Source of the DNA: a bacterium
Lineage (GTDB): Bacteria > Verrucomicrobiota > Kiritimatiellia > CAIKKV01 > CAITUY01
Length of the DNA: 64,000 nt
NCBI GenBank assembly: GCA_037132275.1
Contig: JBAXPK010000007.1
Coordinates: forward strand, 518 to 64,517
Direction of reading: 5' to 3'
The notes under the pieces were generated by a model. The model had not been told where the DNA came from. It saw only the letters and a program-made list of their open reading frames with translations, and ran no database searches. Position numbers and translations under genes: made by a program. Shown piece by piece: positions 1-52,449 of the stretch. How positions within the stretch are numbered: position 1 is the first letter of the stretch; every line of letters begins with the position of its first letter.

Positions 1-1
1 C

Positions 2-1873: not shown

Positions 1874-1900
1874 GCAGGAATGATGTTGGTTAGTGGTTCT

Positions 1901-1940
1901 GAACCCGGAGACAACGAGTGTTGTCTCCGGGTTCTCTTTA
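1901..1940 (+). terminator. Rho-independent terminator
   Basis: Perfect 15-bp stem gaacccggagacaac / gttgtctccgggttc (1901-1915, 1920-1934) with loop gagt, followed by tcttta. Confidence 0.7.
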
Positions 1941-1975
1941 AGCGAAGCCCTTGCGCAAAAGCGCCACGCAAAGGT

Positions 1976-2018
1976 GTAACCACTCCCTAATCCCTGACTA
2001 ACATTTCGGATTCATAGT
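1976..2018 (+). promoter_or_regulatory. Pho-box-like promoter element: three 11-bp-phased CTRAY motifs plus a CATAGT -10-like hexamer
   Basis: GTAAC at 1976, CTAAT at 1987, CTAAC at 1998. Palindrome TGACTA-N14-TAGTCA at 1995-2020. CATAGT at 2013-2018, exactly 15 nt after the proximal CTAA as at the other copies. Confidence 0.45.
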
Positions 2019-2055
2019 CAATTCCATTTGTTCAAGGCGTTGACACTGTGCGAAA

Positions 2056-3438
2056 TTGAAATTTATGAGCCAGACAAACAACAACGAAACAGAAGAGAAA
2101 CGGTTCTCCAAATGGCATACTGCCAGTGCGTGCCTCGGCTTGTGTTTCTTTTGCCTGGTATGGGGGGGGATATCCGTCCAGCATGGGTTTTTCCCTGGGT
2201 ATTTGCTTCGCAACGCCTATGAGGGGGCCAAAGCGGCAAGGGCTAGCTTGCACTATTGGCACATGCGATATAGCGACGACCTCTGGTCGACAAACCGGTT
2301 TTCGCGTAGTGGTGTCACGATTCATGACCCGGCCAGGACGTTTGAGGGCTACACCTTGTATACGTCCGGACACAGTCAGGCAGCGGTGCTGATGGATATG
2401 GGCGGGAAGGTTGTCCATGAATGGAAACTGCCCTATGACCAAATATGGGATTCGTCCGGCGAGGTGAAATATCCCCGCCCTCCCCACCAGGTCTTCTGGT
2501 TCAAGGCGAAGGTCTTTCCGAATGGCGATCTTATGGCCGTTGTGGAAGGAAATGGGGGCACACCCTGGGGCCAGGGAATCATCAAGATAGACCGCGATTC
2601 CCGCCTCATCTGGAAGTACCTGGGCTGTGCGCATCACGACTTCAGCATCGGCGACGACGGACGCGTCTACGGGTTGACGCATGCCATCCGTGAGGAACCC
2701 CTAACTAACCTGCCGCTGAGCTATCCCTGCCTGGAAGATTTTGTCGTGGTGCTGTCGCCGGACGGCAAAAAGGAGCAGCAGGTCTCGATGTTCGAAGCCC
2801 TCGCCAATTCGCGTTACAGGCGGGCTCTGGAAGCGGCGCCGAAAACCCCCTACGGGGAATATCTCCATTGCAACGCGGTTCGCGTGGTTGACAAACAGAT
2901 CGTGCGGAATTTCCCCTTTGCGCATGAGGGGCAGGTATTTGTTTCGATCCGTGAATTCAGCGCCGTGGTGCTTGTTGATCTCAGTAAGCGTTCGGTCGTG
3001 AACGCGCTGATTGGTTCATGGAGGTATCAGCATGATCCGGACTTTCTGGATAACGGCCACGTCATGCTCTTCGATAACTATGGCAACATGGAGGATGGGG
3101 GGATTTCGCGTGTCATCGAGTTTGATCCCCTGACCGGCGGCGTGGTGTGGTCTTACCATGGTACGGATGCCAACCCCCTGAGCAGCGAGAAGCGGTCGAA
3201 CGCCCAGCGGCTGCCCAATGGGAACACGCTCATCACGGAATCGGATTCAGGAAGACTCCTCGAAGTGACGACCCAAGGTGACGTGGTCTGGGAATTCATC
3301 AATCCCGTCAGGGGTGGAAAGAAAGGGGAGCTCATCCCGGTCATCAGCACCGGCGAGCGCATCGCGCCGGAAAGCCTCGATCCGTCGTTCCGCGACACTC
3401 TTGCTTCAAAACAAACTCAAACGAAAGGCTCACCGTGA
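2056..3438 (+). CDS. Aryl-sulfotransferase (ASST)-like beta-propeller protein with N-terminal membrane anchor
   Basis: N-terminal TM (ASACLGLCFFCLVWGGISV). Motifs recalled from ASST/Arylsulfotran_2 proteins: HHDFSIGDDGRVYGL, YLHCNAVRVVD, QHDPDFLDNGHVMLFDNYGN, RLPNGNTLITESDSGRLLEVTTQGDVVWEF. Start is TTG 2056 or ATG 2065. Confidence 0.55.
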   Translation: MKFMSQTNNNETEEKRFSKWHTASACLGLCFFCLVWGGISVQHGFFPGYLLRNAYEGAKAARASLHYWHMRYSDDLWSTNRFSRSGVTIHDPARTFEGYTLYTSGHSQAAVLMDMGGKVVHEWKLPYDQIWDSSGEVKYPRPPHQVFWFKAKVFPNGDLMAVVEGNGGTPWGQGIIKIDRDSRLIWKYLGCAHHDFSIGDDGRVYGLTHAIREEPLTNLPLSYPCLEDFVVVLSPDGKKEQQVSMFEALANSRYRRALEAAPKTPYGEYLHCNAVRVVDKQIVRNFPFAHEGQVFVSIREFSAVVLVDLSKRSVVNALIGSWRYQHDPDFLDNGHVMLFDNYGNMEDGGISRVIEFDPLTGGVVWSYHGTDANPLSSEKRSNAQRLPNGNTLITESDSGRLLEVTTQGDVVWEFINPVRGGKKGELIPVISTGERIAPESLDPSFRDTLASKQTQTKGSP

Positions 3439-3695
3439 ATACACGCATGACCGTATTTTTGTTAGCCATTGTAAGTCTCTTTGGCATTGTGCCTTCGGCC
3501 ATGGCTTATGTCGGACCCGGTGCGGGACTGACGCTGGTCGGATCGTTTATCGGGCTTTGCCTCACCCTGTTGGTGGCTTTGTGGGCTGTCCTTTCGTGGC
3601 CGATTCGCAGACTGCTTAAGCGCAGGGGACGGGGCGCTTCAGGTGGAGAAAAGGCTCCTGAGATGGATCACACACATGACAGCCCCTCTTCTTGA
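3435..3695 (+). CDS. Small two-TM membrane protein
   Basis: Two hydrophobic helices joined by YVGPGAG, followed by a basic tail (RRLLKRRGRG). Overlaps the upstream stop by 4 nt (GTGA). An alternative ATG start lies at 3447. Confidence 0.45.
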   Translation: MNTRMTVFLLAIVSLFGIVPSAMAYVGPGAGLTLVGSFIGLCLTLLVALWAVLSWPIRRLLKRRGRGASGGEKAPEMDHTHDSPSS

Positions 3696-4131
3696 CCTGA
3701 TTGACACGCGTTTGCTGGGATTCCTGCCTGACTTGGCTAAAATCGCGGTGTGGGCCGTGCTGTGCAGCATCATCTCCATGGCACTCTACCGGTGGCTTTC
3801 CCCGCAGAAGCGGCTGGCGGCGGCCAAAGATGACGCCAACCGGACGCGCCTGACGCTTTCCCGCTACGATGGTCCAGGGGACGGGTTGCCCCCGCTCATC
3901 AGGGCATCGTTACTCGCGGCACTCCGGCATATGGGTTTGTGTTTGGGGCCCGCTCTTGTGTCTTCAATTCCCGTGATCGCCATATTCCTATGGATGAACG
4001 CCGTCTACGGCACACCGGCGCGGGACACCCTGTCATTCGGCCCGTCCTGGTTCAGGGCATGGTATGTGCCGTTCAGTGTCGTCATGCTGGCGGCATCACT
4101 GACGATCAAGAAGGTGTGGCGCATTGTGTAG
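3643..4131 (+). CDS. Hypothetical integral membrane protein
   Basis: Three to four hydrophobic segments. Sits in the operon between the ASST-like and sulfotransferase genes. The start is uncertain (ATG 3676 is possible). No family recognised. Confidence 0.4.
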   Translation: MEKRLLRWITHMTAPLLDLIDTRLLGFLPDLAKIAVWAVLCSIISMALYRWLSPQKRLAAAKDDANRTRLTLSRYDGPGDGLPPLIRASLLAALRHMGLCLGPALVSSIPVIAIFLWMNAVYGTPARDTLSFGPSWFRAWYVPFSVVMLAASLTIKKVWRIV

Positions 4132-4155
4132 GCGGGGTCTGCTGGAGTAAGGTTC

Positions 4156-5280
4156 ATGGACAAAACAACACAAGAGAGTTCGGACTTTCAGGTTGACTGG
4201 TTGACAAACCGATTGAGCCAATGGGTCTGGAAGTCGCCGGGGCGTGCTGTTCGGCTGGGGAACCATGAGAGCCGGTGGTTTGCCGATGAATTACAGTCCT
4301 GCCCGGTTCAGAAGCCGGTGTTCATTGCGGGGTTGGCAAGGTCGGGAACCACGATCCTGCTGGAGTTCATGGCGATGCTAGACGGGGTGGCCACCCATCG
4401 ATACCGTGATTTCCCGCTGGTGCATATGCCTATCTGGTGGAACGAGTTCCTGAACCTCACTCCCCGGAAACGCATGGAGCCCGTCGAAAGGAGCCATCGC
4501 GACGGCATTGTGATCACGCCCGAAAGCCCGGAGGCGATGGAAGAGCCCCTCTGGATGAGTTTCTTTCCGCTGGCCCACGACTCGGCGGTCAGCCAGGTGC
4601 TGAATGCGGCCACGGTGAACCCGGGATTTGAAGCGTTTTTCCAAGACCACTTGCGCAAGATCCTGTTCGTGCGCCAGGGTCGCCGCTATGTGTCGAAGGG
4701 CAATTACAACGTCACGCGGCTCGAGTATCTCCTGCGTCTGTTTCCGGACGCACGGTTTGTGGTGCCGGTGCGGGAACCTGCGGGGCACGTGGCTTCACTC
4801 ATCAAGCAGCACCGCATCTTCGGCGAAAATCTTCGAGGCAATCCGCGTGCGCTTGAGTATCTGCGCCGCGTTGGGCACTTCGAATTCGGGCCGGACAGGC
4901 GGGCGATCAATGTGGGGGACACGGTCCTGGCCCGGGAGATTGAAGCGTTGTGGGCCGCCGGCGAAGAGGTGCGTGGTTGGGCCCGATACTGGGCCTCCAT
5001 CCATGGTTTCCTTGCGGGGCGCATGGAATCGGATCCGCTCTTTCGGAAGGCTGTACGACTGGTTCGGTTTGAGGAACTGTGCGAGCGGCCGGCCGCTGAA
5101 CTCAGGAAGATCGCGGAGCATGGTGAGTTTACAGATGCCGCGCGAGGCGCGGACTCTTTCGCGGAACGAATTCGGTTCCCTCGGTACTACGCGCCTTCGT
5201 TCAGTGAAGCCGACGGGATGGCCATTAAGGACGAAACGGCGTCCGTGTTCATGCGACTCATGCGTCTCCAACAACAATGA
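4156..5280 (+). CDS. PAPS-dependent sulfotransferase family protein
   Basis: 5'-phosphosulfate-binding P-loop FIAGLARSGTTILLEFM. A downstream VPVREPAGHVASL segment resembles the 3'-phosphate-binding motif of sulfotransferase-domain proteins. Confidence 0.65.
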   Translation: MDKTTQESSDFQVDWLTNRLSQWVWKSPGRAVRLGNHESRWFADELQSCPVQKPVFIAGLARSGTTILLEFMAMLDGVATHRYRDFPLVHMPIWWNEFLNLTPRKRMEPVERSHRDGIVITPESPEAMEEPLWMSFFPLAHDSAVSQVLNAATVNPGFEAFFQDHLRKILFVRQGRRYVSKGNYNVTRLEYLLRLFPDARFVVPVREPAGHVASLIKQHRIFGENLRGNPRALEYLRRVGHFEFGPDRRAINVGDTVLAREIEALWAAGEEVRGWARYWASIHGFLAGRMESDPLFRKAVRLVRFEELCERPAAELRKIAEHGEFTDAARGADSFAERIRFPRYYAPSFSEADGMAIKDETASVFMRLMRLQQQ

Positions 5281-5293
5281 AAGGGCTCGTATT

Positions 5294-6244
5294 ATGAAGA
5301 ACAGGCAGTTTTATAATGGGATGTCGGTATTACTTGCCGTGGTTTCGCTTCTGGGCGCAGGCTGCGGTAAGCGGCAGACTGCGCCGGAGGCCCGGATCAC
5401 GGTTTCGGGTGCCTGGGCGCTTTACCCGATGATGGTGAAATGGGCGGAAGAATATAGGAAGTCACATCCCGGGATTCAGATCGATATTTCTGCAGGCGGA
5501 GCCGGAAAAGGGATGACGGATGCCTTATCAGGCGCCGCCGATATCGGCATGGTTTCACGGGATATCAATCCCTCCGAAGCGGGTAAGGGGGCATGGTGGG
5601 TGGCGGTGGTCAAGGATGCCGTGATTCCCGTCATGAATGCCTCAAACCCGAACGGCGGCATCCTCGCCAAACGGGGTCTCAAGAAAGAGGAATTTACCGC
5701 CATCTTTGTGAAGGGAAATGTTCAGGATTGGAGTTTTGCGGGCGGCACACCAACTCCGCTTCATGTTTATACTCGATCAGACGCCTGCGGCGCAGCGGAA
5801 ACCTGGGCCAAGTATCTTGGCGCCAAGCAGGAAGACTTGAAGGGAACCGCCGTTTACGGGGATCCCGGCGTGGCCGAAGCCGTGCGCAAAGACGTGTCAG
5901 GCATCGGGTTCAATAATCTGATTTTCGCCTATGACATCAAGAGCGGTCAACCCCTTCCGGGTATATGCGTCATCCCCATCGACAGCAATGGGAACGGCGC
6001 CGTGGATCCCGGGGAGGATTTCTATGGGACCCACAAGGCGGTCATGCAGGCAATTGCTACGGGGCGTTATCCCTCCCCGCCAGCCCGTGATCTGAATCTG
6101 GTGCATCATGGGCCCCCCCCGTCCGGACCTGTTGCCGATTTTATCAAGTGGGTGCTTGCGGAGGGGCAAGCGTTTGTATCCGAAGCCGGCTATATCGCCC
6201 TGCCCGCTGAAATCCTCAACAGCCAGAAGGCAAAGCTGAAATAG
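5294..6244 (+). CDS. pstS: Phosphate ABC transporter substrate-binding lipoprotein PstS
   Basis: Lipobox LLGAGC. PstS-type motifs ITVSGAWALYP, ISAGGAGKGMTDALSGAADIGMVSRDINPSE. ATG 5294 lies 13 nt after the sulfotransferase stop. The longer track ORF from 4628 overlaps the previous gene and is Arg/Ser/Cys-rich. Confidence 0.8.
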   Translation: MKNRQFYNGMSVLLAVVSLLGAGCGKRQTAPEARITVSGAWALYPMMVKWAEEYRKSHPGIQIDISAGGAGKGMTDALSGAADIGMVSRDINPSEAGKGAWWVAVVKDAVIPVMNASNPNGGILAKRGLKKEEFTAIFVKGNVQDWSFAGGTPTPLHVYTRSDACGAAETWAKYLGAKQEDLKGTAVYGDPGVAEAVRKDVSGIGFNNLIFAYDIKSGQPLPGICVIPIDSNGNGAVDPGEDFYGTHKAVMQAIATGRYPSPPARDLNLVHHGPPPSGPVADFIKWVLAEGQAFVSEAGYIALPAEILNSQKAKLK

Positions 6245-6247
6245 GCC

Positions 6248-7150
6248 ATGGATCGTGATTCCATACGACAGGGACTGGATTGCTGGGGCCGCCGAGGCAT
6301 GGTTGCGACGGTGGCGATGTGCATTTTACTCCTACTGCTTATGGCGATGGGCCTGCTGTGGAAATCCTGGCCCATTCTTAGCTCACATTCACTGGCAGGC
6401 CTGTTTCTTTCCAGCGTCTGGAAACCCCATGGAGGGCAGTTCGGATTTCTGGCCTTCATTCTGGGTTCCTTATGCATTACCGGAGTAGCGGTGCTGCTGG
6501 CCGCGCCGGTTTCGTTGTTAACGTCCATCTATCTGTCCGAATATGCCGGACGCCGGATCCGGGCGTTGATGTCGCCCCTGATCGATCTCCTGGCGGGCAT
6601 TCCCTCGGTGGTTTACGGGGTGTGGGGAGTGCTGGTGGTCGTTCCCCTGGTGAAAGATCATCTAGCGCCGGTATTCGGCCGATATTCATCCGGGTATTGC
6701 GTTCTTTCCGCCGGGGTGGTGCTGGCCATCATGATTTTGCCTGTCGTCATTCATGTGGGCCTGGATGTGTTGAAGTCCGTTCCCCAGGGGTTGCGCGAGG
6801 CCTCCCTGTCACTGGGCGCGAATCGGTGGGAAACGGTGAAGCATGTAGTATTGCGGCGTGCGGCGCCGGGCCTGTTGGCCGCCAATGTTTTAGGCGTGTC
6901 GCGGGCCTTTGGCGAGACGATGGCCGTTCTCATGGTGGCGGGGAACGTCGCCGTGACTCCGAAATCCGCATTCGATCCCGCCTACCCGCTACCCGCGCTC
7001 ATTGCCAACAACTACGGCGAGATGATGTCGATCCCGCAGTATGACTCCGCCCTGATGCTGGCGGCGCTCATGCTTTTCGTGGTGGTACTGGGTTTCAATT
7101 TATTGTCGCGCTGGGTTTTTGCCCGTATGGAGTTGCGCATTTCAGGATGA
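6248..7150 (+). CDS. pstC: Phosphate ABC transporter permease PstC
   Basis: Multi-TM permease with an EAA-like loop (GLREASLSLGANRWETVKHVVLRRAAPGL). Lies immediately after pstS. Confidence 0.8.
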   Translation: MDRDSIRQGLDCWGRRGMVATVAMCILLLLLMAMGLLWKSWPILSSHSLAGLFLSSVWKPHGGQFGFLAFILGSLCITGVAVLLAAPVSLLTSIYLSEYAGRRIRALMSPLIDLLAGIPSVVYGVWGVLVVVPLVKDHLAPVFGRYSSGYCVLSAGVVLAIMILPVVIHVGLDVLKSVPQGLREASLSLGANRWETVKHVVLRRAAPGLLAANVLGVSRAFGETMAVLMVAGNVAVTPKSAFDPAYPLPALIANNYGEMMSIPQYDSALMLAALMLFVVVLGFNLLSRWVFARMELRISG

Positions 7151-7154
7151 ACCC

Positions 7155-8003
7155 ATGAGAAAGCAGATTGAAGAAATTGCCGCCAAAATCCTGATGATCG
7201 GAGCCGCCGTGGTGGTGGCCGGGATGGTCGTTTTGATTCTCGGAACCGTGTTATGGCGCGGCCTCCCGGCGTTGAGTTGGGAAATGATCTCGCAGACTCC
7301 GTCCGGCGGTTACTATCTCGGAAAGGGCGGCGGCATTCTCAATGCCATCGTCGGGTCACTTTCGGTGGCCGGTGGCGCAACCCTGCTGTCGCTCGGCCTG
7401 GCTTTGCCAGTGGCGTTGAGCCTGAATGTCTATTTCAAGACCCATTCCCGACTGGCGGGTTGCGTCAGGGGCTCGTTGGATGTGCTGTGGGGTGTGCCCT
7501 CCATTGTCTATGGCGCCTTCGGGTTTGCGTTTATGCTTTGGCTCGGACTCCGCGCTTCCCTCCTGGGGGGGATTATCACCGTGGCTTTGATGATCCTCCC
7601 CATCATGATCCGGGCCATGGATGAAGTGATTCACATGGTTCCGCACGAGATGCTGGAAGCCTCCGATGCCCTGGGTGCCACCCGGTGGGAGGGCGCCTGG
7701 AAGGTAATCCTCCGGCAGGCGCTTCCCGGACTTGCCAGCGCGGCGCTGATCGCCTTCGGGCGGGGGATCGGGGATGCCGCCTCTGTTCTTTTCACGGCGG
7801 GATTTTCGGACCGGATTCCGATGTCACTTGCGGATCCTGCTGCGACCCTGCCGCTGGCCATATTCTTCCAGTTGGGTACCCCGTTCCCGGAGGTTCAGCA
7901 ACGGGGCTATGCTGCGGCGCTGATATTAACGGCCATCGTGCTGACGGCCAGCGCTCTGGCGCGTCTGGTCAGCCATCGGGCGGGACGGTTTGTAATTCGA
8001 TGA
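7155..8003 (+). CDS. pstA: Phosphate ABC transporter permease PstA
   Basis: Multi-TM permease with EASDALGATRWEGAWKVILRQALPGL. ATG 7155 lies 4 nt after the pstC stop. Confidence 0.8.
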   Translation: MRKQIEEIAAKILMIGAAVVVAGMVVLILGTVLWRGLPALSWEMISQTPSGGYYLGKGGGILNAIVGSLSVAGGATLLSLGLALPVALSLNVYFKTHSRLAGCVRGSLDVLWGVPSIVYGAFGFAFMLWLGLRASLLGGIITVALMILPIMIRAMDEVIHMVPHEMLEASDALGATRWEGAWKVILRQALPGLASAALIAFGRGIGDAASVLFTAGFSDRIPMSLADPAATLPLAIFFQLGTPFPEVQQRGYAAALILTAIVLTASALARLVSHRAGRFVIR

Positions 8004-8013
8004 AGGACATACC

Positions 8014-8775
8014 ATGACAGCCAATACCCCTATTGAAGTGAAAGACCTGAATGTGCATTACGGCACGATCCATGCTTTGAAAAATATCCACGTTAGTATC
8101 CCCAATTGCCAGATCACGGCAGTCATCGGCCCCTCGGGGTGCGGTAAGTCTACCTTGTTGCGTTCGTTCAACCGCATGCTCGACACCATGGATGATGTGC
8201 GGGTCACAGGCGGGGTGCTGGTCGACGGTGAGAATATTTTTGCGGCCAATGCGGATGTGCCGCGTCTACGCCGCAAGATGGGACTGCTTTCTCAGCGGCC
8301 GTTTCTCCTGCCTATGTCGATCTATGACAATGTGGCCTACGGGCCGCGCATCCATGGGATCAGCCGCCATTCCGACCTGGATTGCACCGTGGAAAAATAC
8401 CTCCGGATGGCCAACATGTGGGATGAGGTCAAGGATCGTCTTCGCGAGCCCGCTGCAAAGCTGTCGATCGGTCAACAGCAACGGCTCTGCCTGGCGCGGG
8501 GCCTCGCTGTGGAACCCGAGATTATCCTGGCGGACGAGCCCACCTCGGCGCTGGACCCGATTTCAAGCCGTCACATTGAACAACAATTCCGAGAGTTACG
8601 GGCTGACTACACGCTGGTGATGGTGACCCATATTCTTCGGCAGGCCCGTCGCCTGGCCGACTATGTGCTTTTCATGTATCTGGGTGAACTCATCGAGCAC
8701 GGGCCGGCGGCCGAACTGTTTGAGAATCCCCGCGAGGAATTGACGAAGGATTATATCAAGGGAACGATCAGTTAG
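8014..8775 (+). CDS. pstB: Phosphate ABC transporter ATP-binding protein PstB
   Basis: Walker A GPSGCGKST, signature LSIGQQQRLCLARGL, Walker B IILADEPTSALD. PstB-typical N-terminus (VKDLNVHYG) and C-terminus (TKDYIKG). Confidence 0.85.
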   Translation: MTANTPIEVKDLNVHYGTIHALKNIHVSIPNCQITAVIGPSGCGKSTLLRSFNRMLDTMDDVRVTGGVLVDGENIFAANADVPRLRRKMGLLSQRPFLLPMSIYDNVAYGPRIHGISRHSDLDCTVEKYLRMANMWDEVKDRLREPAAKLSIGQQQRLCLARGLAVEPEIILADEPTSALDPISSRHIEQQFRELRADYTLVMVTHILRQARRLADYVLFMYLGELIEHGPAAELFENPREELTKDYIKGTIS

Positions 8776-8786
8776 GAGGCCAGGCC

Positions 8787-9308
8787 ATGGTGAGTAGTAA
8801 GATTCAACCTGCAGTCGTGTGGTTCACCGGATTATCAGGGTCCGGCAAGAGTACCCTTGCTGAGAAGGTGGAGCACGCCCTGAAGATGCGTGGCGTGGAC
8901 ACCGAGATTCTGGATGGCGACCGGGTTCGCGCGGTCTTTCCGAGCATCGGGTTCTCCCTTGAGGAGCGCAACGCGCATATCCGCCGCATGGGCTTCATGG
9001 CGGGTCTCCTTGAGAAACACGGTGTGGTGGTGCTGGCGAGTTTCGTGTCGCCTTATGCAGAGGCCCGCCAGGCGGCGCGGTGGCAATGCCGCAATTTTAT
9101 TGAGGTCTATCTTTCCACCCCCCTCGCCGAATGCGAGCGGCGCGATGTGAAAGGTCTCTACGGCAAGGCGCGCCGGGGCGAGATCTCCAACTTCACCGGA
9201 GTCAGTGATCCGTATGAAGTTCCGGAGAATCCGGATCTGGTTATCGACACCACCGCCATGAGTGTGGAGGAATCTGTTGCCCTGGTTCTGGGGAGATTGC
9301 AGTCATGA
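8787..9308 (+). CDS. cysC: Adenylylsulfate (APS) kinase CysC
   Basis: [56 protein letters not shown]. All canonical APS kinase motifs are retained. Confidence 0.85.
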
Positions 9309-10210
9309 CAATCCATTCCCTGACCCATTTGAAGCAACTGGAAGCCGAGAGCATTCATATCATGCGCGAGGTGGCCGCAGAATTCGAGCGGCCGGTCATG
9401 CTTTACTCGGTCGGGAAAGACTCATCGGTCATGGTGCGGCTGGCCCAGAAGGCCTTTTACCCCGGACGGATTCCCTTTCCACTGATGCATGTGGATACAG
9501 GTTTCAAATTCGGGGAGATGATTGAGTTCCGTGACCGGTTTGTGAAGGAGATCAAGGCGGATCTTATTGTGCATCAGCATGAAAAATCAGCCGACCTGTC
9601 GGTGAATCCCTTTGCCCTCGGAACCCAGAAGTGCTGTGCGATACTTAAGACGCAGGCTCTGGTGGAAGCCATACGCAAACATAAGTTTGACGCCGCTTTC
9701 GGGGGCGCCCGCCGCGAGGAGGAGAAATCGCGGGCCAAGGAGCGGGTGTTCTCCTTTCGGGACGAGCTCGGGCAGTGGGATCCCAAAAACCAGCGTCCGG
9801 AACTGTGGAGCCTCTATAATACCCGGGTCAACACAGGCGAATCCATCCGAGTATTCCCCATCTCCAACTGGACCGAGTTGGATGTCTGGCAATATATCTA
9901 CATGGAAAAGATTCCGGTGGTGCCCATGTACTTTGCGCAGGAGCGCGACATGATTGTGAGGGATGAGCAGTTGATTCCGTTCCAGGAAACCACGCCGCTC
10001 AAACCGGGCGAACACCCCTGCAAAGTGCTGAGTCGATTCCGCACCCTGGGCTGTTATCCCTGTACCGGGGCCATCCGGTCATCGGCGTCAACGGTGGCGG
10101 AAATCATCGAGGAAATGATGGTCGTACGCATCTCCGAACGTTCGACCCGCGTGATTGATCATGACGCCGAGGGCTCGATGGAAATGAAGAAACGGGAAGG
10201 GTATTTCTAG
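9305..10210 (+). CDS. cysD: Sulfate adenylyltransferase subunit 2 CysD
   Basis: [35 protein letters not shown] (PP-loop), [11 protein letters not shown], and the C-terminal KKREGYF typical of CysD. ATGA overlap with cysC. Confidence 0.9.
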
Positions 10211-10211
10211 A

Positions 10212-12143
10212 ATGAATGCGATTGAGGCATTTCTGGCGGAGAATGAGAAGAAGGATCTGCTTCGGTTTTCGACGGCGGGCAGCATTGACGACGGCAAGTC
10301 AACCCTGATCGGCCGTTTACTGCACGACTCAAAGAATGTCTACGAGGATACGCTGGCGTCGATCAAAAAGGCGTCTCGTGAAAAAATGTCGGAGGAACAG
10401 ATCGACCTTGCCTTGCTCACTGACGGTCTTAAGGCAGAACGCGAGCAGGGGATCACCATTGACGTCGCCTACCGCTATTTTTCGACACCGCGCCGGAAAT
10501 TCATCATCGCCGACACGCCCGGACACGAGCAATACACCCGGAATATGGCGACCGGCGCCTCGACCGCCAATCTTTCGGTTGTGCTGGTGGATGCGCGTCA
10601 TGGCATCCTTCCCCAGACGCGGCGCCATGCGTTTATCGCCTCCCTGCTGGGGGTGCCGCACATGATTGTGGCCGTGAACAAAATGGATGCCGTGGACTAT
10701 CGGGAAGACGTCTTTCAGGCGATTCGCGACGAGTTCGCTGAGTTTGCCTCGAAGCTGGGCATCAAGGATCTGCGTTTCATTCCGCTGAGTGCCCTCAAGG
10801 GCGATAACGTCGTCCATCGCAGTGGAAACATGACCTGGTACCGGGGCGAAAGCCTGATGGAAATCCTGGAGAACGTCTACATCGGCAGCGACCATAATCT
10901 CGTGGATCTGCGGTTCCCCATCCAATATGTGGTGCGCCCGGATATGGGCTTCCGCGGCTATGCCGGAGTTGTCACCTCCGGTGTCATCCGTCGGGGGGAT
11001 GAGGTGTTGGCGCTCCCTTCGATGAAAGTCAGCCGGGTCAAATCGATTGTCACCTTTGATGGCGACGTGGAAGAGGCCTGTTCGCCCATGTCGGTAACGG
11101 TCACCCTGGAAGACGAGCGTGATATCAGCCGCGGGGAAATGCTGGTCCGTCCGCATAACCTTCCCAAAATGGACCGGCGTTTTGAAGGCATGGTGGTGTG
11201 GATGGGGGATGCCCCAATGGATCTGAATGCCAGCTATTTCATCAAGCACACCACCCGCCTGACCCGGTGCCGGGTGGACGAAATCCGTTACAAGGTGAAT
11301 GTGAACACCCTGGCCAGAGAGGCCATGACGGGACTCGCCTTGAATGACATTGGCCGGGTTGTCTTCACCGCCAATCAACCCCTGTTCAGTGATTCCTACG
11401 AGAAGAACCGGGGAACCGGCTCATTTATCCTGATTGACCCCGTGACCAACGCCACTGCGGCAGCCGGGATGATCATTGATCGCGAACCAGCGGAACAGCT
11501 TGTTTCCCGCATCACCCCCGGGGTAGGGGCGCACACGATGAGCCGGCATGGCCGCCAGATCGAGGCCGGGGAGCGGGTGGCGCGTTATGGGCAGAAGCCG
11601 GCGACCCTGTGGCTGACCGGTCTGGTGGGATCGGGAAAATCAAGTCTGGCTGGCGCGCTAGAGCGGAAGCTTTTCGACTTGGGCGCCGTCAGCGTTGTCC
11701 TCGATGGTTCGAATGTGCGGTCGGGCCTCAACCGTGAACTGGATTTCACGTCCGAGGGGATGGCCGAACATCTCCGCCGCGTCGCTGAGATGGCTCGGCT
11801 CCTGAACGATGCCGGGTTGGTGGTTATATGCGCCTTTGTTTCCCCTCATGAAAAGGTGCGCCGGCAGGTGGCTGAAATTATTGGAATCGACCGGTTTCTG
11901 GAAGTTCACGTGGATGCGCCCCTTGAGTGGTGCCAGGCTCACGACCACACTGGGTTCTATCAGCGGGCCGAGGTAGGCGAGGTGCGCAACGTGGCGGGCA
12001 TCAGTTTTCCTTATGAAGCGCCGACCACGCCCTCGCTCAGGGTGTCGACGCCGGATATGACGCCTGAAGGTGCTGTATCAATCGTCATGAACCTGCTGCG
12101 TAAACAAGGGATATTCCCGGTCGGTGCTCTCTCAAATGAGTGA
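10212..12143 (+). CDS. cysN: Sulfate adenylyltransferase subunit 1 (CysN GTPase) fused to an APS-kinase-like C-terminal domain
   Basis: GTPase motifs [21 protein letters not shown]. The C-terminal domain starts about 11601 ([15 protein letters not shown]) but has LDGSNVR instead of LDGDNVR, plus other substitutions. Confidence 0.85.
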
Positions 12144-12176
12144 AGTTAATACTTTGCTGGCAGGGGTGATGCCTAA

Positions 12177-12590
12177 TTGAAGATTCCAAACAGCGTGGAA
12201 CGCGTTCTTAAATTTGGCGTGGTCGGGGTCTTGACCTTCGCGCTGGATCTTATTCTTCTTTATGTTTGTATCGACTGGTTGGAATGGAATTACATTATCG
12301 CGACGGGAATCGCGTTCACAATGGCCGTTTCTGTAAACTATTATGGCGACCGGCGCTGGGTGTTCAAAGGCACTCTCAGGTCCATCCGGGCGGGGTATGT
12401 TATTTTCATGGTCATCGGATGCGTGGGCGCGGCCATTGCCATGGTCGGCATGTCCGTCCTCGTGGGGGTTTTCCACATTCATTATTTTGCATCGCGCATC
12501 GCCATTGCGAGCCTGGTGGGCCTGTGGAACTATTTCATGAACCTCTATGTAAACTTTCAGGTGACAGGCAAGCACGGGGAGGCTTCCTGA
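12177..12590 (+). CDS. GtrA-family membrane protein
   Basis: 137 aa with 4 TM segments. FGVVGVLTFALDLILLYV...NYYGDRRWVFK matches the GtrA-like pattern. The TTG start is uncertain. Confidence 0.6.
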   Translation: MKIPNSVERVLKFGVVGVLTFALDLILLYVCIDWLEWNYIIATGIAFTMAVSVNYYGDRRWVFKGTLRSIRAGYVIFMVIGCVGAAIAMVGMSVLVGVFHIHYFASRIAIASLVGLWNYFMNLYVNFQVTGKHGEAS

Positions 12591-12636
12591 ATCTGTTTCC
12601 CGTCCCCGCAGCCCGGGTGTGCCGGCTTGCGAGCAT

Positions 12637-12679
12637 CTAACGTGAGCGTTGTTGTTTCCTAACATAGGGTGTCTATCGT
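12637..12679 (+). promoter_or_regulatory. Promoter-like element: CTAAC-N17-CTAAC-N10-TATCGT
   Basis: CATCTAACG (12634-12642), N10, TGTTTCCTAACA (12653-12664), then TATCGT at 12674-12679. It lies 28 nt upstream of ATG 12707, which has an AAGGAGG RBS. Confidence 0.45.
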
Positions 12680-12706
12680 CTTTCCAAGTTAAGGAGGAAT
12701 GACGAT

Positions 12707-48934: not shown

Positions 48935-50128
48935 TCATGTGTGAACGGTCATGTGCCGGTGGGTTTCGGGACTTGCCAGGGACGATTCAGGCCGGTGCGT
49001 TTGCCAGATCACGAAGTTCCTTTTCCGGAGGCAGTTGATGATGGCCGCAAGGGCGGCCAGATTTGCGGTAAAAAAATAGTGGGGCAGGCGAAACAAGGCG
49101 GGGCCGATATTGAGTCGATCCAGCATGGCGCCAATGGCCGAGATCAGGATGAACGAGACTTGAAGCAGGAGCGTCATGCGGTAGAAGGGTTGATGCAGCA
49201 GAAACACGTTGGCAGTGAATGCGGTTAGCGCGAAGACAGGAACCATCCAGCGTAGCAGGCGATGACTGATAACCTGGAGGGCAAACCCGCCGATTCGGAA
49301 CGGATTGAGAACATCGGGTGCGATCCGAAGGCTGGTGAGGCAGCGGGTCATGATTCTGACTTTTCTGGCAAACTCATCCTTCAACTCGGGCAGGACGGCT
49401 TCGCGTGATATTGCGCAGGGCTCGAAGATGTGCCGTTTTTGGTGGTAGCACATGATGAGCAAGGGTTCCATGAAGTCGCTGATCATGGCGGGATCAAGAG
49501 GGATGTACAACGCCCGTCGGACGGCATAGATCGGCCCCGTGGCGCCCGTGCAGGATAACACACGGCTTTCCCATGTCTTAATGTAAGATTCCATGTCGCG
49601 ATAGATTAACTCATGATGAGCCGTTGCCGATCCCCGTGGTGTGAAGTCCACCCGCCGACCTTCCACGCAACCGACATCCTCGCGAGAAAAATGCCAGATC
49701 AACCACTGCAGTGCAGTGGGTTCGTAAAGGGCGTTGGCATCGGAGAACACCAGGATGTCTCCCGTGGCCTGAGCGACGGCGATGTTCTGTGCCGCAGTCT
49801 TTCCCTGTTGCCGCCCTAGCCTGATCAGGTGCACGCCCTGTGCCCGGAATCCGGCCACGATCTCATCCGTCCGATCCGTGGAGCCGTCAGAGACAACGAT
49901 AATCTCCCGTTTCCCACGGGGATAGCCCAGGGAAAGCGCATTTTGGAGTTTCTCCTCAATGACATGTTCCTCGTTGAACGCCGCAATAATAATACTGACA
50001 GACGGCCAGCTATTAGTTGGGGGTGGCGTTGGCTCTCGGTTGAACTGTGACAGGAGCCAGATGATGAGGGGGTAGCCGACATACACATAGACGATGACGG
50101 CTACACTTGACCAGAATAGGAACGCCAT
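48935..50128 (-). CDS. Membrane-bound glycosyltransferase family 2 (processive-synthase-like)
   Basis: VSIIIAAFNEE, VVSDGSTDRT, FSDANALYEP, a C-terminal QVISHRLLRW (QxxRW-like) and C-terminal TM helices. Confidence 0.8.
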   Translation of the reverse strand: MAFLFWSSVAVIVYVYVGYPLIIWLLSQFNREPTPPPTNSWPSVSIIIAAFNEEHVIEEKLQNALSLGYPRGKREIIVVSDGSTDRTDEIVAGFRAQGVHLIRLGRQQGKTAAQNIAVAQATGDILVFSDANALYEPTALQWLIWHFSREDVGCVEGRRVDFTPRGSATAHHELIYRDMESYIKTWESRVLSCTGATGPIYAVRRALYIPLDPAMISDFMEPLLIMCYHQKRHIFEPCAISREAVLPELKDEFARKVRIMTRCLTSLRIAPDVLNPFRIGGFALQVISHRLLRWMVPVFALTAFTANVFLLHQPFYRMTLLLQVSFILISAIGAMLDRLNIGPALFRLPHYFFTANLAALAAIINCLRKRNFVIWQTHRPESSLASPETHRHMTVHT

Positions 50129-50839
50129 TTAGTAGGTAATCTCCTTGCCGCTGGCGATCACAAAAAACGTCGTCGTCAGAATCCAGAGGTCAAGCCATGT
50201 GCTTTGGTAACGGAGGTAATAGAGGTCGTACACCAGTCGTGCTGACATATCGGGCATGCCGCGGTTATGGATTTGCTGATACCCGGTGATGCCGGGCTTG
50301 ACCAGCAGTCTGATGCGCTGTTCCACATTGTAACGGTTCGCCAACGTCACCACCTCGGGACGCGGGCCGACGAGGCTCATTTCCCCCCGCAGGACATTCA
50401 GCAACTGGGGAAGCTCATCCAGGCCAAAGCGGCGGAGGAATCGGCCCAGGCGGGTCACGCGCGGGTCGTCCTTGAGTTTGTAGACCGGTTCCTCCAGGGC
50501 TTCGATGTTGATGTAATGTTTCAACTGCTCTTCAGCGCCAACCACCATGGAGCGGAACTTGAACATGTTAAAGGGGCGGCCATTCAATCCGGCCCGTGCT
50601 TGCGTGAAGAAGACGGGTCCTCTGCTGGACGTCTTGATGGCCACGGCGATGAGCGCCCAAAGGGGCATGGTGATGATAATTCCCAGAAGGGCGAAGATGA
50701 TATCCGTGCCTCGCTTGATGACTTCCTGTGTTTGAACACTCGTGTTTGTGATTCCACCAGGGGATGGAAGGGCCTCTTCCCATTCGGTGATCGAACCCGG
50801 TTCGCCAACCCATGCCGCCGTTCCGTAATGACCGTTCAT
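50129..50839 (-). CDS. Undecaprenyl-phosphate sugar phosphotransferase (Bac_transf family, initiating enzyme)
   Basis: [26 protein letters not shown] and [21 protein letters not shown]. Confidence 0.85.
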
Positions 50840-50903
50840 AATTGTGTCCCCCTGAAATTGGTTGAGTGAAGCAACTGAATGGCAACATCATCCCGAAAAA
50901 CGG

Positions 50904-52445: not shown

Positions 52446-52449
52446 GATG

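What the first reader, a model, noticed from the sequence alone, without database searches (positions are those of the whole stretch)
2056..12590. One operon couples PAPS synthesis, two kinds of sulfotransferase and a complete PstSCAB transporter
Eleven co-directional genes have gaps of 0-33 nt or overlaps. They are: a membrane-anchored ASST-like beta-propeller, two small unknown membrane proteins, a PAPS-type sulfotransferase (RSGTT P-loop), pstS-pstC-pstA-pstB, cysC, cysD, cysN-APS-kinase-like, and a GtrA-like protein. Assimilatory cys clusters normally carry a sulfate transporter (CysPTWA) and PAPS/APS reductase. Here the transporter slot holds a Pst system and no reductase is present. The operon therefore looks dedicated to making PAPS for sulfating a cell-envelope glycan or lipid, which is consistent with GtrA and the nearby EPS cluster. 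It also appears tied to phosphate uptake and regulation. A sulfation module with this composition is not something I recognise as described.
Basis: partly seen in the sequence, partly recalled or inferred. Interest (0 to 1): 0.6.

Follow-up and report, generated by a model that had tools for sequence, protein, structure and literature searches.

The report
Self-supplied sulfation operon with Pst-like importer
Twelve tightly packed genes join a widespread but undescribed four-protein sulfate-transfer module to its own PAPS factory and to a phosphate-type ABC importer whose binding pocket no longer looks built for phosphate and probably takes up sulfate.

Summary
Twelve (not eleven) co-directional genes at 2056-12590 have gaps of -20 to +33 nt, and the whole array recurs in three related metagenome contigs. 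The array is a composite of three parts.

1. The first four genes are a Cpz4-like aryl-sulfotransferase propeller, an ~86-aa protein with an invariant AxA|Y[VI]GPGAG motif, a 3-TM protein and a PAPS-type sulfotransferase. They form a self-contained cassette. In 60 species loci with enough flank, each partner lies beside the sulfotransferase in 70-83% (all three in 36), across at least eight phyla. I found no description of it. Neither membrane protein matches any Pfam or NCBIfam model.

2. The "PstS" belongs to a large, tightly conserved subfamily. Five of the six phosphate-contacting hydroxyl side chains and the proposed proton acceptor are replaced (A-W-A, A, C-G-A). No PhoU lies beside it. 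Its relatives sit next to Rrf2 regulators and cysDN, cysH, sat and TauE genes. It is more likely a sulfur-oxyanion importer than a phosphate importer.

3. CysC, CysD and CysN-APS-kinase make PAPS, and no reductase is present.

Best reading: uptake, then activation, then a two-step sulfuryl relay as in caprazamycin (Cpz8 to Cpz4), probably acting on an envelope target. The link to phosphate is not supported. All function is inferred.

The parts
1902..1939 (+). Terminator-like hairpin (AACCCGGAGACAAC-GAGT-GTTGTCTCCGGGTT + CTCTTT) ending the upstream gene. It marks the 5' boundary of the array.
   Evidence: Sequence read. It was not listed by the consensus scan because the T-run is short.
1965..2064 (+). 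Conserved upstream region, a candidate promoter/operator or 5' leader of the array.
   Evidence: More than 90% identical to L001/L002 although the genes upstream differ there. No Rfam family matches.
2056..3438 (+). Membrane-anchored, Cpz4-like aryl-sulfotransferase (ASST) beta-propeller. The likely true start is ATG 2065.
   Evidence: Pfam Arylsulfotran_2 72 bits and Arylsulfotrans 30.6 bits. AF2 model pLDDT 89 with an N-terminal helix at 13-43. The best PDB match is Cpz4 9KF4/9KF6, E 5e-16, TM 0.56-0.59. Invariant residues include H121, H193, H194, H271-x-N273, H326-D327, R400 and R435; R299 and R352 are conserved in at least 90%.
3435..3695 (+). Small membrane protein (86 aa): signal-peptide-like N-terminus, AxA|Y[VI]GPGAG motif, one TM helix, then WP[IL]R and a basic tail.
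   Evidence: Translation. Found in 64 homologous loci. Y, G, P, A, G are invariant in the 63 of 64 sequences where the motif was located, and Ala is at -3 and -1 in 58 and 61 of 63. No Pfam or NCBIfam family.
3676..4131 (+). Three-TM membrane protein, short form (151 aa), with a conserved charged loop (LSPQxRI...YDGxF). Other phyla carry a ~250-aa form with a ~100-aa insert between TM2 and TM3.
   Evidence: Alignment of 20 homologs. The 20-nt overlap with the preceding gene is the same as in L001. No Pfam or NCBIfam hit even at E<=5.
4156..5280 (+). Cytoplasmic PAPS-dependent sulfotransferase (374 aa).
   Evidence: Sulfotransfer_3 58 bits. Invariant 5'-PSB GLARSG(T/S)T and 3'-PB R206...S214. 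AF2 pLDDT 88.6. Nearest solved folds are Stf1/Stf9 and TPST1/2. More than 3500 homologs at about 50% identity across phyla.
5294..6244 (+). Lipoprotein-type substrate-binding protein of Pst ancestry with a remodelled anion site; probable sulfur-oxyanion binder.
   Evidence: PBP_like_2 114 bits; TIGR02136 93.9 bits, below the 206.6 cut-off. Mapping onto C. perfringens PBP-1 gives S11A, T12W, S13A, S41A, S129C and T131A, with S59 and R125 kept. The substitutions are invariant in the subfamily, except W/F at position 41.
6248..7150 (+). ABC permease, PstC type.
   Evidence: TIGR02138 274 bits, above the 196 cut-off.
7155..8003 (+). ABC permease, PstA type.
   Evidence: TIGR00974 184.5 bits, just below the 193.45 cut-off. 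The 282-aa length matches the called gene in L001.
8014..8775 (+). ABC ATPase, PstB type.
   Evidence: TIGR00972 331.3 bits, just below the 343.2 cut-off.
8787..9308 (+). Stand-alone APS kinase (CysC).
   Evidence: PF01583 188 bits; TIGR00455 198.9 bits, above the 138.7 cut-off. Canonical LDGD and KGLY..AR..NFTG motifs were read.
9305..10210 (+). Sulfate adenylyltransferase small subunit CysD.
   Evidence: NF009214 477 bits, above the 413 cut-off.
10212..12143 (+). CysN GTPase fused to an APS-kinase-like domain.
   Evidence: NF004035 884 bits, above the 715 cut-off. The kinase domain reads LDGSNVR and [12 protein letters not shown], read.
12177..12590 (+). GtrA-family small membrane protein, last gene of the array.
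   Evidence: PF04138 68 bits. Conserved at the same place in L001/L002.
48935..53637 (-). EPS genes (GT2, Bac_transf, MurJ-like flippase, GT4). They are associated with the array, not part of it. Their orthologs directly precede the four-gene cassette in relative L005.
   Evidence: Pfam. tblastn against L005 gives 52-62% identity in the same order.

Best explanation
The array is a lineage-specific assembly of three modules that together form a self-sufficient sulfation pathway.

(1) Uptake. A Pst-derived ABC importer (5294-8775) has a binding protein with a remodelled anion pocket. It most likely imports sulfate or a close sulfur oxyanion, and so fills the role CysPTWA plays elsewhere. This is inferred.

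(2) Activation. CysD/CysN make APS and the stand-alone CysC makes PAPS. The family assignments are shown. The kinase-like domain fused to CysN carries substitutions at canonical motifs and may be regulatory. This is inferred.

(3) Transfer. The first four genes form a conserved membrane-associated module.
- The cytoplasmic PAPS-dependent sulfotransferase loads a sulfuryl group onto an aryl (phenolic) intermediate.
- The Cpz4-like aryl-sulfotransferase propeller is anchored by one N-terminal helix and is probably periplasmic. It passes the sulfuryl group on to the final acceptor through a sulfo-histidine ping-pong step.
- This matches the two-step Cpz8 to Cpz4 sulfation of caprazamycin.
- The two novel membrane proteins would bridge or scaffold the two enzymes.
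- The invariant Tyr that follows the predicted signal-peptidase site of the small protein is the best candidate for a protein-borne aryl-sulfate carrier or target.

In this lineage the final acceptor is probably the Wzx/Wzy-type exopolysaccharide encoded at 35-53 kb. The GtrA-like protein may handle a lipid-linked intermediate. Gene identities, conservation and linkage are shown. Every biochemical step is inferred.
For: Array and identities. The array is conserved in L001-L003.

Four-gene cassette:
- In 60 GTDB species loci with enough flank, the ASST-like gene lies within 4 kb of the ST in 48, the 3-TM protein in 50, the small protein in 42, and all three in 36.
- Gene order is permuted in Binataceae but adjacency is kept.
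- No other neighbour is conserved.
- The ASST-like and ST families have similar sizes (3955 and 3572 hits).

Two-step sulfation analogy:
- The ASST-like model is closest to Cpz4. Cpz4 takes sulfate from aryl sulfates made by the PAPS enzyme Cpz8 (PMC4257720).
- Known ASTs use a sulfo-His ping-pong mechanism with His/Asn/Arg ligands and can act on Tyr peptides (PMC13426309).
- Invariant H271-x-N273 and H326 and near-invariant R299 fit this.
- The ST is nearest to protein-tyrosine sulfotransferases by sequence (E 1e-8) and to Stf1/Stf9/TPST by fold.

Small protein: Tyr is invariant in 63/63 sequences.

Transporter:
- Binding-site substitutions, mapped onto residues defined in PMC5381212 and PMC13614923.
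- No PhoU in any of 7 Pfam-annotated contexts (window, L001, L088-L090, L171, L172), nor in the cluster analysis of 83 loci.
- Rrf2 in 12-16 loci, cysD/N, cysH or sat in 8, TauE in 4.
- A Kiritimatiellae MAG repeats the theme importer + a different Sulfotransfer_3 + CysC-CysD-CysN/APSK.
- Precedent: B. subtilis CysP is a phosphate-transporter (PiT) relative used for sulfate (PMC5840216).

EPS link: L005 synteny.
Against: There is no experimental datum for any component.

Transporter:
- PstC passes NCBI's equivalog cut-off for phosphate, and PstA and PstB miss theirs by only about 10 bits.
- 12-13 relatives of the transporter sit beside a Porin_O_P (phosphate-selective porin family) gene.
- A PhoB-like regulator lies 7 kb downstream and a PhoU-domain gene 41 kb away.
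- Only 8 of about 46 informative neighbourhoods of the binding-protein subfamily hold sulfate-activation or reduction genes.

Cassette:
- In 59 of 60 other species the cassette has no cys or transporter genes nearby. The coupling seen here is therefore not intrinsic to it.
- No phenol-donor synthase (the Cpz6 equivalent) is present.
- The small protein's Tyr is predicted to be periplasmic while the PAPS enzyme is cytoplasmic. A Tyr carrier would have to be sulfated before export and used once.
- The side of the membrane on which the ASST-like propeller sits is not settled: the positive-inside count is weak, 1.8 vs 1.25 K/R.
- Similarity of the ST to TPSTs is confined to the PAPS-binding motifs, with TM-scores of only about 0.45-0.55.
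Confidence: 0.5

Rival explanations
1. PstSCAB is a true high-affinity phosphate importer. The operon couples sulfation to phosphate scarcity, for example by making sulfated instead of phosphorylated envelope polymers under Pho control.
For: - PstC is above the NCBIfam phosphate equivalog cut-off, and PstA and PstB are just below theirs.
- All solved relatives of the binding protein are phosphate binders.
- Porin_O_P genes sit beside 12-13 relatives.
- A PhoB-like regulator is at 19844-20542 and a PhoU-domain gene at 53800-54453.
- S-type PBPs already show that the classical Asp is dispensable (PMC5381212).
Against: - The binding protein scores less than half of the PstS-family cut-off.
- Five of six hydroxyl ligands and the proposed proton acceptor are replaced, invariantly across a subfamily with more than 7900 hits.
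- No PhoU lies adjacent in any examined context.
- Rrf2, not PhoB/R, is the recurrent neighbouring regulator.
- Sulfur genes recur as neighbours.
- PAPS synthesis needs sulfate, and no other sulfate transporter is present in the array.
Confidence: 0.2
2. Ordinary juxtaposition. The importer plus CysC/D/N is simply this organism's assimilatory sulfate-activation cluster, with the reductase encoded elsewhere. The four-gene cassette happens to lie upstream and draws on the general PAPS pool as in other species. There is then no dedicated 'sulfation operon'.
For: - In 59 of 60 species the cassette stands alone without cys genes.
- Relatives of the importer are linked to assimilatory genes (cysH, sat) in other metagenome loci.
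- The SBP...CysN block is shared with a Kiritimatiellae MAG at 56-78% identity without the cassette.
Against: - Only 13 nt separate the sulfotransferase stop from the binding-protein start, with no promoter-like site.
- The 12-gene order is kept in three further contigs.
- The Kiritimatiellae locus also has a sulfotransferase between the importer and cysC.
- No reductase occurs in 64 kb.
- A separate CysC (PAPS formation) is what sulfotransferases need.
Confidence: 0.2
3. The small protein is the end product, not a carrier. The cassette matures a membrane-anchored peptide with sulfotyrosine at its N-terminus, a RaxX/RaxST-like logic. The ASST-like propeller acts as a second modifying or editing enzyme.
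For: - The Tyr is invariant directly after an AxA signal-peptidase motif.
- The ST is nearest to tyrosylprotein sulfotransferases by sequence.
- The cassette is self-contained, with no conserved fifth gene that could supply another substrate.
- ASTs accept Tyr peptides (PMC13426309).
Against: - There are no acidic residues around the Tyr, unlike typical TPST/RaxST sites.
- It does not explain why two sulfotransferases of different donor chemistry are needed.
- It does not explain the EPS linkage in L005.
- It does not explain the dedicated importer and PAPS genes here, a large supply for a stoichiometric modification.
Confidence: 0.1

Closest known systems
Two-step sulfation in caprazamycin biosynthesis (Cpz8 PAPS-dependent sulfotransferase, Cpz6 type III PKS, Cpz4 aryl-sulfate sulfotransferase; Streptomyces)
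   Same: A PAPS-dependent sulfotransferase and a PAPS-independent ASST are encoded together. The window's ASST-like protein is structurally closest to Cpz4 itself. The logic is PAPS, then aryl sulfate, then final acceptor (PMC4257720).
   Different: There is no polyketide synthase or other phenol-donor synthase here. The ASST-like protein is membrane-anchored. Two novel membrane proteins are obligatory partners. The cassette is not inside an antibiotic cluster and occurs in hundreds of species of many phyla. The acceptor is unknown.
PstSCAB high-affinity phosphate ABC transporter (D-type E. coli PstS; S-type C. perfringens PBP-1, Synechocystis SphX)
   Same: The four-gene SCAB architecture and sequence family are the same. 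PstC is above the equivalog cut-off and PstA/B are near theirs. The Arg (R161) and the Ser at the Asp/Ser position (S88) of the binding site are retained.
   Different: The binding protein falls far below the PstS cut-offs. The GSTS, GSS and SGT ligand motifs have become GAWA, GGA and CGA. There is no phoU. Neighbours are Rrf2 and sulfur-metabolism genes rather than Pho genes.
Sulfate uptake systems: SulT (Sbp/CysP-CysTWA) and B. subtilis CysP of the PiT phosphate-transporter family
   Same: Proposed role and operon position next to cysDN/cysC are the same. CysP is a precedent for a phosphate-transporter lineage recruited to sulfate, with loss of phosphate-specific residues (PMC5840216). From my own knowledge, Salmonella Sbp binds sulfate with backbone NH groups, one Ser OH and one Trp NH and no acceptor. 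That resembles the donor set predicted here.
   Different: It is not a sequence member of SulT: the CysT/CysW models give about 35-52 bits against cut-offs of 246-329. Sulfate binding is untested. The Trp is Phe in the Bacteroidales members.
Dedicated PAPS supply for bacterial sulfotransferases: NodPQ-NodH (rhizobia), RaxPQ-RaxST (Xanthomonas), CysDNC-Stf0 (mycobacteria). This comparison rests on my own knowledge.
   Same: CysD plus CysN-APS-kinase-type genes are placed with a sulfotransferase to make a sulfated extracellular or envelope product rather than cysteine.
   Different: Here there is an additional stand-alone CysC, a dedicated importer, a second (aryl-type) sulfotransferase and two membrane proteins, all in one array.
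GtrA of the GtrABV O-antigen glucosylation systems. This comparison rests on my own knowledge.
   Same: It is a small GtrA-family membrane protein at the end of an envelope-modification operon. The family is associated with moving lipid-linked donors for periplasmic glycan modification.
   Different: There is no GtrB-like or GtrV-like partner in the array. GtrA is not part of the conserved cassette in other phyla. Its role here is a guess.

Membership tests
PstSCAB phosphate transporter | Binding protein reaches the curated PstS family score | tested here: not met
   TIGR02136 93.9 bits vs cut-off 206.6. TIGR00975 65 vs 205.
PstSCAB phosphate transporter | Phosphate site: Ser/Thr hydroxyl network plus a proton acceptor (Asp in D-type, Ser/Thr in S-type) and Arg | tested here: not met
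   The alignment to 4Q8R was read against the ligand list of PMC5381212 and PMC13614923. S11A, T12W, S13A, S41A, S129C and T131A are substituted. Only S59 (S88) and R125 (R161) are kept. The pattern is invariant in 18 subfamily members, except W/F at position 41.
PstSCAB phosphate transporter | Permeases and ATPase of PstC/PstA/PstB type | tested here: inconclusive
   PstC 274 bits, above 196. PstA 184.5, below 193.45. PstB 331.3, below 343.2.
PstSCAB phosphate transporter | Typical context: phoU after pstB, Pho regulation | tested here: not met
   No PhoU lies beside the genes in the window or in L001, L088-L090, L171 and L172. No PhoU-like cluster appeared among the neighbours of 83 loci. 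Regulation itself cannot be tested here.
SulT sulfate/thiosulfate ABC transporter (Sbp/CysP-CysTWA) | Sequence membership of the permeases and binding protein | tested here: not met
   CysT/CysW models give about 35-52 bits against cut-offs of 246-329. SBP_bac_11 gives 18.6 bits, below 25. It may work like SulT but is not a member.
SulT sulfate/thiosulfate ABC transporter (Sbp/CysP-CysTWA) | Binds and imports sulfate | not testable with these tools
   Only indirect evidence is available: loss of proton acceptor and hydroxyl ligands, and genomic linkage to cysDN, cysH, sat, TauE and Rrf2.
PAPS-independent aryl sulfotransferase (ASST), Cpz4 type | Arylsulfotran family domain and six-bladed propeller fold | tested here: met
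   PF14269 72.1 bits, above 27. PF05935 30.6, above 24.2. The AF2 model's best PDB hits are Cpz4 9KF4/9KF6, E 5e-16.
PAPS-independent aryl sulfotransferase (ASST), Cpz4 type | Conserved His/Asn/Arg sulfuryl-binding residues and a catalytic His | tested here: inconclusive
   H193, H194, H271-x-N273 and H326-D327 are invariant and R299 is conserved in at least 90% of 24-65 homologs. The HxN and QHD motifs align with Cpz4. One-to-one mapping onto E. coli His252/His356/Asn358/Arg374/His436 was not established.
PAPS-independent aryl sulfotransferase (ASST), Cpz4 type | Aryl-sulfate-dependent, PAPS-independent transfer | not testable with these tools
   This needs an enzyme assay.
PAPS-dependent sulfotransferase | Sulfotransferase fold with 5'-PSB and 3'-PB motifs | tested here: met
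   PF13469 58.2 bits, above 27. GLARSG(T/S)T and R206...S214 are invariant. Fold hits are Stf1, Stf9 and TPST1/2.
Tyrosylprotein sulfotransferase (TPST/RaxST-like) | Specific relationship beyond the PAPS-binding motifs; Tyr-peptide substrate | tested here: inconclusive
   The best PDB sequence hits are TPST1/2 (E 1e-8), but the aligned stretches are the PSB/PB motifs only. TM-scores are 0.4-0.58. The substrate is untested.
Two-step (Cpz8/Cpz6/Cpz4-type) sulfation | PAPS-ST and ASST co-encoded | tested here: met
   They are adjacent in the window and in 48 of 60 species loci.
Two-step (Cpz8/Cpz6/Cpz4-type) sulfation | Dedicated synthase for the phenolic sulfate carrier | tested here: not met
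   There is no PKS or other biosynthetic gene in the array, and none is conserved near the cassette.
CysDN ATP sulfurylase + CysC APS kinase | Curated family scores | tested here: met
   CysD 477 bits, above 413. CysN/APSK 884, above 715. CysC TIGR00455 198.9, above 138.7.
GtrA family | GtrA_DPMS_TM domain | tested here: met
   PF04138 68 bits, above 26.1.

The most novel reading that the evidence does not exclude
Two undescribed things may be real here.

(a) A widespread four-protein sulfuryl relay across the inner membrane: cytoplasmic PAPS sulfotransferase, a 3-TM scaffold, a small protein with an N-terminal Tyr, and a periplasmic Cpz4-like aryl sulfotransferase. It would let bacteria sulfate extracytoplasmic targets although PAPS cannot leave the cytoplasm. 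It would also give ASST-type enzymes the physiological donor and role that have been missing.

(b) A sixth kind of prokaryotic sulfate transporter, evolved from PstSCAB by remodelling the anion pocket, regulated by Rrf2 proteins, and currently annotated as phosphate uptake in thousands of genomes.
Probability: 0.3. Interest if true: 0.85.

Novelty: new variant of a known kind. Interest (0 to 1): 0.68.

Why it matters
- The physiological donors and roles of bacterial aryl sulfotransferases are still called poorly understood in a 2026 review (PMC13426309). A conserved cassette that pairs such an enzyme with a PAPS enzyme and two membrane proteins gives a concrete hypothesis. It can be tested in cultured carriers such as Thalassospira, Thiohalobacter, Nitrococcus and Arhodomonas.
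- If the Pst-like importer carries sulfate, thousands of 'phosphate transporter' annotations in Spirochaetota, Bacteroidales, Kiritimatiellae and Desulfobacterota would be wrong. That would distort phosphorus and sulfur budgets inferred from metagenomes.
- It would also be a clean natural example of how the textbook phosphate/sulfate discrimination rule is reversed within one protein fold.
- For PVC-type polysaccharide specialists, it points to a route for making sulfated exopolymers.

Tried and rejected
- Rfam scan of 1-14000 at E<=1 found no riboswitch or leader. The only hit was a spurious lncRNA at E 0.28.
- Sigma-70 promoter and intrinsic-terminator scans over 1700-13400 gave counts at the shuffled background. 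They are uninformative for transcript structure.
- Pfam and NCBIfam scans of the small and 3-TM proteins, including long forms from Thiohalobacter, Virgifigura, Thalassospira and Binataceae, found nothing at E<=5 beyond noise.
- Nine literature searches were run. None produced a paper describing the cassette or a Pst-type sulfate transporter. One apparent hit was a false match to the protein name 'PapS'.
- A PhoU probe written from memory (E. coli PhoU) found no PhoU near 83 binding-protein loci. Its sensitivity is low, so I rely more on the unbiased neighbour clustering and the Pfam-annotated contexts.
- The positive-inside count on the ASST-like anchor was too weak to fix its topology.
- I considered the conserved YDGxF motif of the 3-TM protein as a Tyr-sulfation site and rejected it. 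The Tyr is replaced by F, H or D in many homologs.
- I considered DsbL/DsbI-like helpers, as in the E. coli assT operon, and rejected them. There is no CxxC motif and no conserved Cys in the propeller or the membrane proteins.
- A search for a fifth conserved partner of the cassette found only lineage-specific synteny.

Full report
**What is there.**
- With the most likely starts the junctions are -4, -20, +24, +13, +3, +4, +10, +11, -4, +1 and +33 nt.
- Pfam and NCBIfam give the following assignments:
  - an Arylsulfotran_2 propeller with an N-terminal hydrophobic helix;
  - two proteins with no family;
  - a Sulfotransfer_3 enzyme;
  - a PBP_like_2 binding protein;
  - PstC-, PstA- and PstB-type components;
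  - an APS kinase;
  - CysD;
  - a CysN/APS-kinase fusion;
  - a GtrA-family protein.
- A strong hairpin (1902-1939) closes the upstream gene.
- The ~95 nt before the first gene are more than 90% identical to two related contigs whose upstream genes differ. This supports ATG 2065 as the true start and marks a conserved control region.
- The same twelve genes in the same order occur in three further contigs at 79-98% protein identity.
- No PAPS/APS reductase, ATP sulfurylase of the Sat type or sulfite reductase is detectable in the 64 kb.

**The array is a composite; its core is a four-gene cassette.**
- The sulfotransferase has more than 3500 homologs that stay about 50% identical across phyla.
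- A scan of one genome per species found at least 523 species. I examined 80 loci.
- In the 60 loci with enough flank, the ASST-like gene lies within 4 kb in 48, the 3-TM protein in 50, the small protein in 42 (tblastn is weak on an 86-aa query), and all three in 36.
- PstS/C/A homologs are present in none of the 60, and cysC/D/N genes in one.
- Carriers include cultured Thalassospira, Thiohalobacter, Arhodomonas and Virgifigura. They also include MAGs of Nitrococcus, Planctomycetota, Acidobacteriota, Binatota, Rokubacteria, Desulfobacterota and Fibrobacterota.
- In Binataceae the order is permuted (small, membrane, ST, ASST) but adjacency is kept.
- Unbiased clustering of all flanking ORFs found no fifth conserved partner.
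- Neither membrane protein matches any Pfam or NCBIfam model, even at E<=5.
- None of nine full-text searches produced a description of the cassette.

**Anatomy of the cassette.**
- ASST-like protein:
  - It models with pLDDT 89 as a propeller behind an N-terminal helix.
  - Its best solved relative is Cpz4 (E 5e-16).
  - H193, H194, H271-x-N273, H326-D327, R400 and R435 are invariant, and R299 and R352 are conserved in at least 90%.
  - This is consistent with the His/Asn/Arg sulfuryl site and sulfo-His ping-pong mechanism of known ASTs (PMC13426309).
  - It has no conserved cysteine.
- Sulfotransferase:
  - It has no signal peptide, and its PAPS motifs are invariant.
  - The model has pLDDT 88.6.
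  - It is nearest to tyrosylprotein sulfotransferases by sequence, although only over the PAPS motifs.
  - It is nearest to mycobacterial Stf1/Stf9 and TPSTs by fold.
- Small protein:
  - It reads as a signal-peptide-like segment, Ala at -3 and -1, then Y-[VI]-G-P-G-A-G, one TM helix, and W-P-[IL]-R plus a basic tail.
  - Y, G, P, A and G are invariant in 63 of 63 sequences.
- Third protein:
  - It has three hydrophobic segments and a conserved, positively charged loop.
  - It occurs in a ~150-aa form (this lineage, Planctomycetota, Acidobacteriota) and a ~250-aa form with an insert between TM2 and TM3.

**The transporter is Pst by descent but probably not by function.**
- Scores:
  - The binding protein scores 93.9 bits against a family cut-off of 206.6.
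  - PstC passes its cut-off, and PstA and PstB miss theirs narrowly.
  - The binding protein belongs to a large subfamily with 63% mean column identity. NCBI mostly names its members only 'substrate-binding domain-containing protein'.
- Binding site:
  - I used the gap-free local alignments to C. perfringens PBP-1 and the ligand list from its structure paper (PMC5381212).
  - Ser11, Thr12, Ser13, Ser41, Ser129 and Thr131 correspond to Ala40, Trp41, Ala42, Ala70, Cys165 and Ala167. Only Ser59 (Ser88) and Arg125 (Arg161) are kept.
  - The substitutions are invariant in the subfamily, except that Trp41 is Phe in the two Bacteroidales-type members.
  - Ser13, or its Thr equivalent in SphX, is the proposed acceptor of the phosphate proton in S-type binders. 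Asp plays this role in D-type binders.
  - A pocket with no acceptor and few hydroxyls is what one expects for a fully ionised oxyanion.
  - From my own knowledge, Salmonella sulfate-binding protein uses backbone NH groups, one Ser and one Trp.
- Context:
  - No PhoU follows the ATPase in the window or in six other Pfam-annotated loci.
  - I examined 83 loci of the subfamily, about 46 of them with informative flanks.
  - The recurrent neighbours are an Rrf2 regulator (12-16 loci) and a Porin_O_P-family porin (12-13).
  - An Alginate_exp-like barrel recurs in 10 loci, cysD/cysN, cysH or sat in 8, and TauE in 4.
  - No PhoU-like cluster appears among the neighbours.
  - A Desulfobacteraceae locus has Rrf2 upstream and TusA and YeeE-type genes beside it.
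  - A Kiritimatiellae MAG repeats the theme: Rrf2, importer, a different Sulfotransfer_3 gene, CysC, CysD, CysN/APSK. Its CysD is 78% identical to the window's.
- Precedent: the five recognised sulfate-transporter families do not include a Pst type. One of them, B. subtilis CysP, is a recruited phosphate-transporter relative (PMC5840216).
- I put sulfate or a close sulfur oxyanion at about 55%, phosphate at about 25% and another anion at about 20%.

**PAPS supply.**
- CysD, CysN/APSK and CysC all exceed their curated cut-offs.
- The fused kinase domain reads LDGSNVR and [12 protein letters not shown] where the stand-alone CysC keeps LDGD and [17 protein letters not shown].
- The fused domain may therefore be regulatory, which would explain why a separate CysC is kept. 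The same trio occurs in the Kiritimatiellae locus. I did not test this further.

**How it most likely works.**
- Shown: the gene identities, the conservation of the cassette, the remodelled pocket and the linkage patterns.
- Inferred:
  - Sulfate is imported by the Pst-derived system and activated to PAPS.
  - The cytoplasmic sulfotransferase makes an aryl sulfate.
  - The Cpz4-like enzyme hands the sulfuryl group to the final acceptor. This is the logic demonstrated for Cpz8 and Cpz4 (PMC4257720).
  - The propeller carries an N-terminal signal-anchor, and the small protein's Tyr follows a signal-peptidase motif. I therefore favour a relay across the inner membrane that supplies sulfuryl groups where PAPS cannot go.
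  - The two membrane proteins would act as a bridge.
  - The invariant Tyr would be the carrier or first acceptor.
- Weak points of the relay model:
  - The topology of the propeller is not fixed.
  - No phenol-donor synthase exists.
  - A Tyr on an exported protein would be a single-use carrier.
- Possible target in this lineage:
  - It may be the Wzx/Wzy-type exopolysaccharide encoded at 35-53 kb.
  - In relative L005 the orthologous GT4-MurJ-Bac_transf-GT2 block directly precedes the cassette.
  - GtrA fits a lipid-linked step but is not part of the conserved core.

**Rivals.**
- A true phosphate importer coupling sulfation to phosphate scarcity (0.2). It is supported by the PstC/A/B scores, the Porin_O_P neighbours, a PhoB-like regulator at 19844-20542 and an orphan PhoU-domain gene at 53800-54453.
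- Mere juxtaposition of an assimilatory uptake/activation cluster with an independent cassette (0.2).
- The small protein as the final sulfotyrosine product (0.1).

**Verdict.**
A sulfation operon fits the evidence, an envelope target is plausible, and the phosphate coupling is not supported.
- The composition is a new variant of known kinds: two-step sulfation, dedicated PAPS supply and oxyanion ABC import.
- The two underlying units appear undescribed. These are the four-gene cassette and the remodelled Pst subfamily.
- Both are testable in cultured bacteria.
- Interest is 0.68.

Noticed in passing
window 10212-12143 (kinase domain about 11590-12110) versus 8787-9308: The APS-kinase domain fused to CysN has LDGS instead of LDGD and a degenerate lid motif ([12 protein letters not shown]). 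The stand-alone CysC is canonical. The fused domain may be regulatory rather than catalytic. The same trio of genes occurs in a Kiritimatiellae MAG (L089).
   Followed up: partly
window 12622-12664 and 12910-12952: A 43-nt direct repeat (79% identical...CATCTAACG...TGTTTCCTAACA) lies about 43 nt upstream of the start codons of a 62-aa CxxC ORF (12707) and of a CBM48-domain gene (12956). It is possibly a shared promoter or operator.
   Followed up: partly
window about 1965-2064: The non-coding stretch before the first gene is more conserved (over 90% with L001/L002) than the ASST-like protein it precedes (79%), although the upstream genes differ. No Rfam match and no recognisable Pho box.
   Followed up: partly
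window 53800-54453 (-) and 19844-20542 (+): An orphan PhoU-domain gene sits next to the EPS glycosyltransferases, 41 kb from the Pst-like genes. An OmpR-family regulator has PhoB as its best model (237.6 bits, below the cut-off of 296.2).
   Followed up: no
window 35014-53637: A Wzx/Wzy-type exopolysaccharide cluster: Poly_export, polysaccharide deacetylase, Wzy_C, methyltransferases, GT4, GT2, Bac_transf and a MurJ-like flippase. A hybrid histidine kinase is embedded at 42462-44165.
   Followed up: partly
window 24234-32868: A TonB-dependent receptor (1126 aa) is followed by two MotA/ExbB-family proteins, TonB_C, a TPR protein and DUF3450. This is a complete energised outer-membrane uptake set.
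   Followed up: no
window 13317-18923: Two conserved proteins with no family (333 aa and 800 aa) are also present after the array in L001. They are followed by a phosphatidylserine decarboxylase and an Lgt-like protein, possibly a lipid-modification unit.
   Followed up: no
loci L091-L170, L088-L090, L171, L172 (relatives of window 5294-8775): The remodelled binding-protein subfamily is very common in Spirochaetota, Bacteroidales, Kiritimatiellae and Desulfobacterota metagenomes. It is often preceded by an Rrf2 regulator with a Cys cluster and by Porin_O_P or Alginate_exp-like outer-membrane barrels. One locus (L171) has an inositol-monophosphatase/CysQ-family gene nearby.
   Followed up: partly
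loci L004, L016, L058 versus window 3676-4131: The 3-TM protein exists in a short form (~150 aa) and a long form (~250 aa). The long form has a ~100-residue insert between TM2 and TM3 that ends in a conserved WWN..GN..GY motif, likely an extra soluble domain on the non-cytoplasmic side.
   Followed up: partly
window 29-1873: The upstream gene encodes a large secreted-looking protein with a Big_7 Ig domain and beta-helix-like repeats. Its ortholog in L001 is separated from the array by two inserted genes: an AAA_14/DUF4143 ATPase and a 554-aa protein.
   Followed up: no
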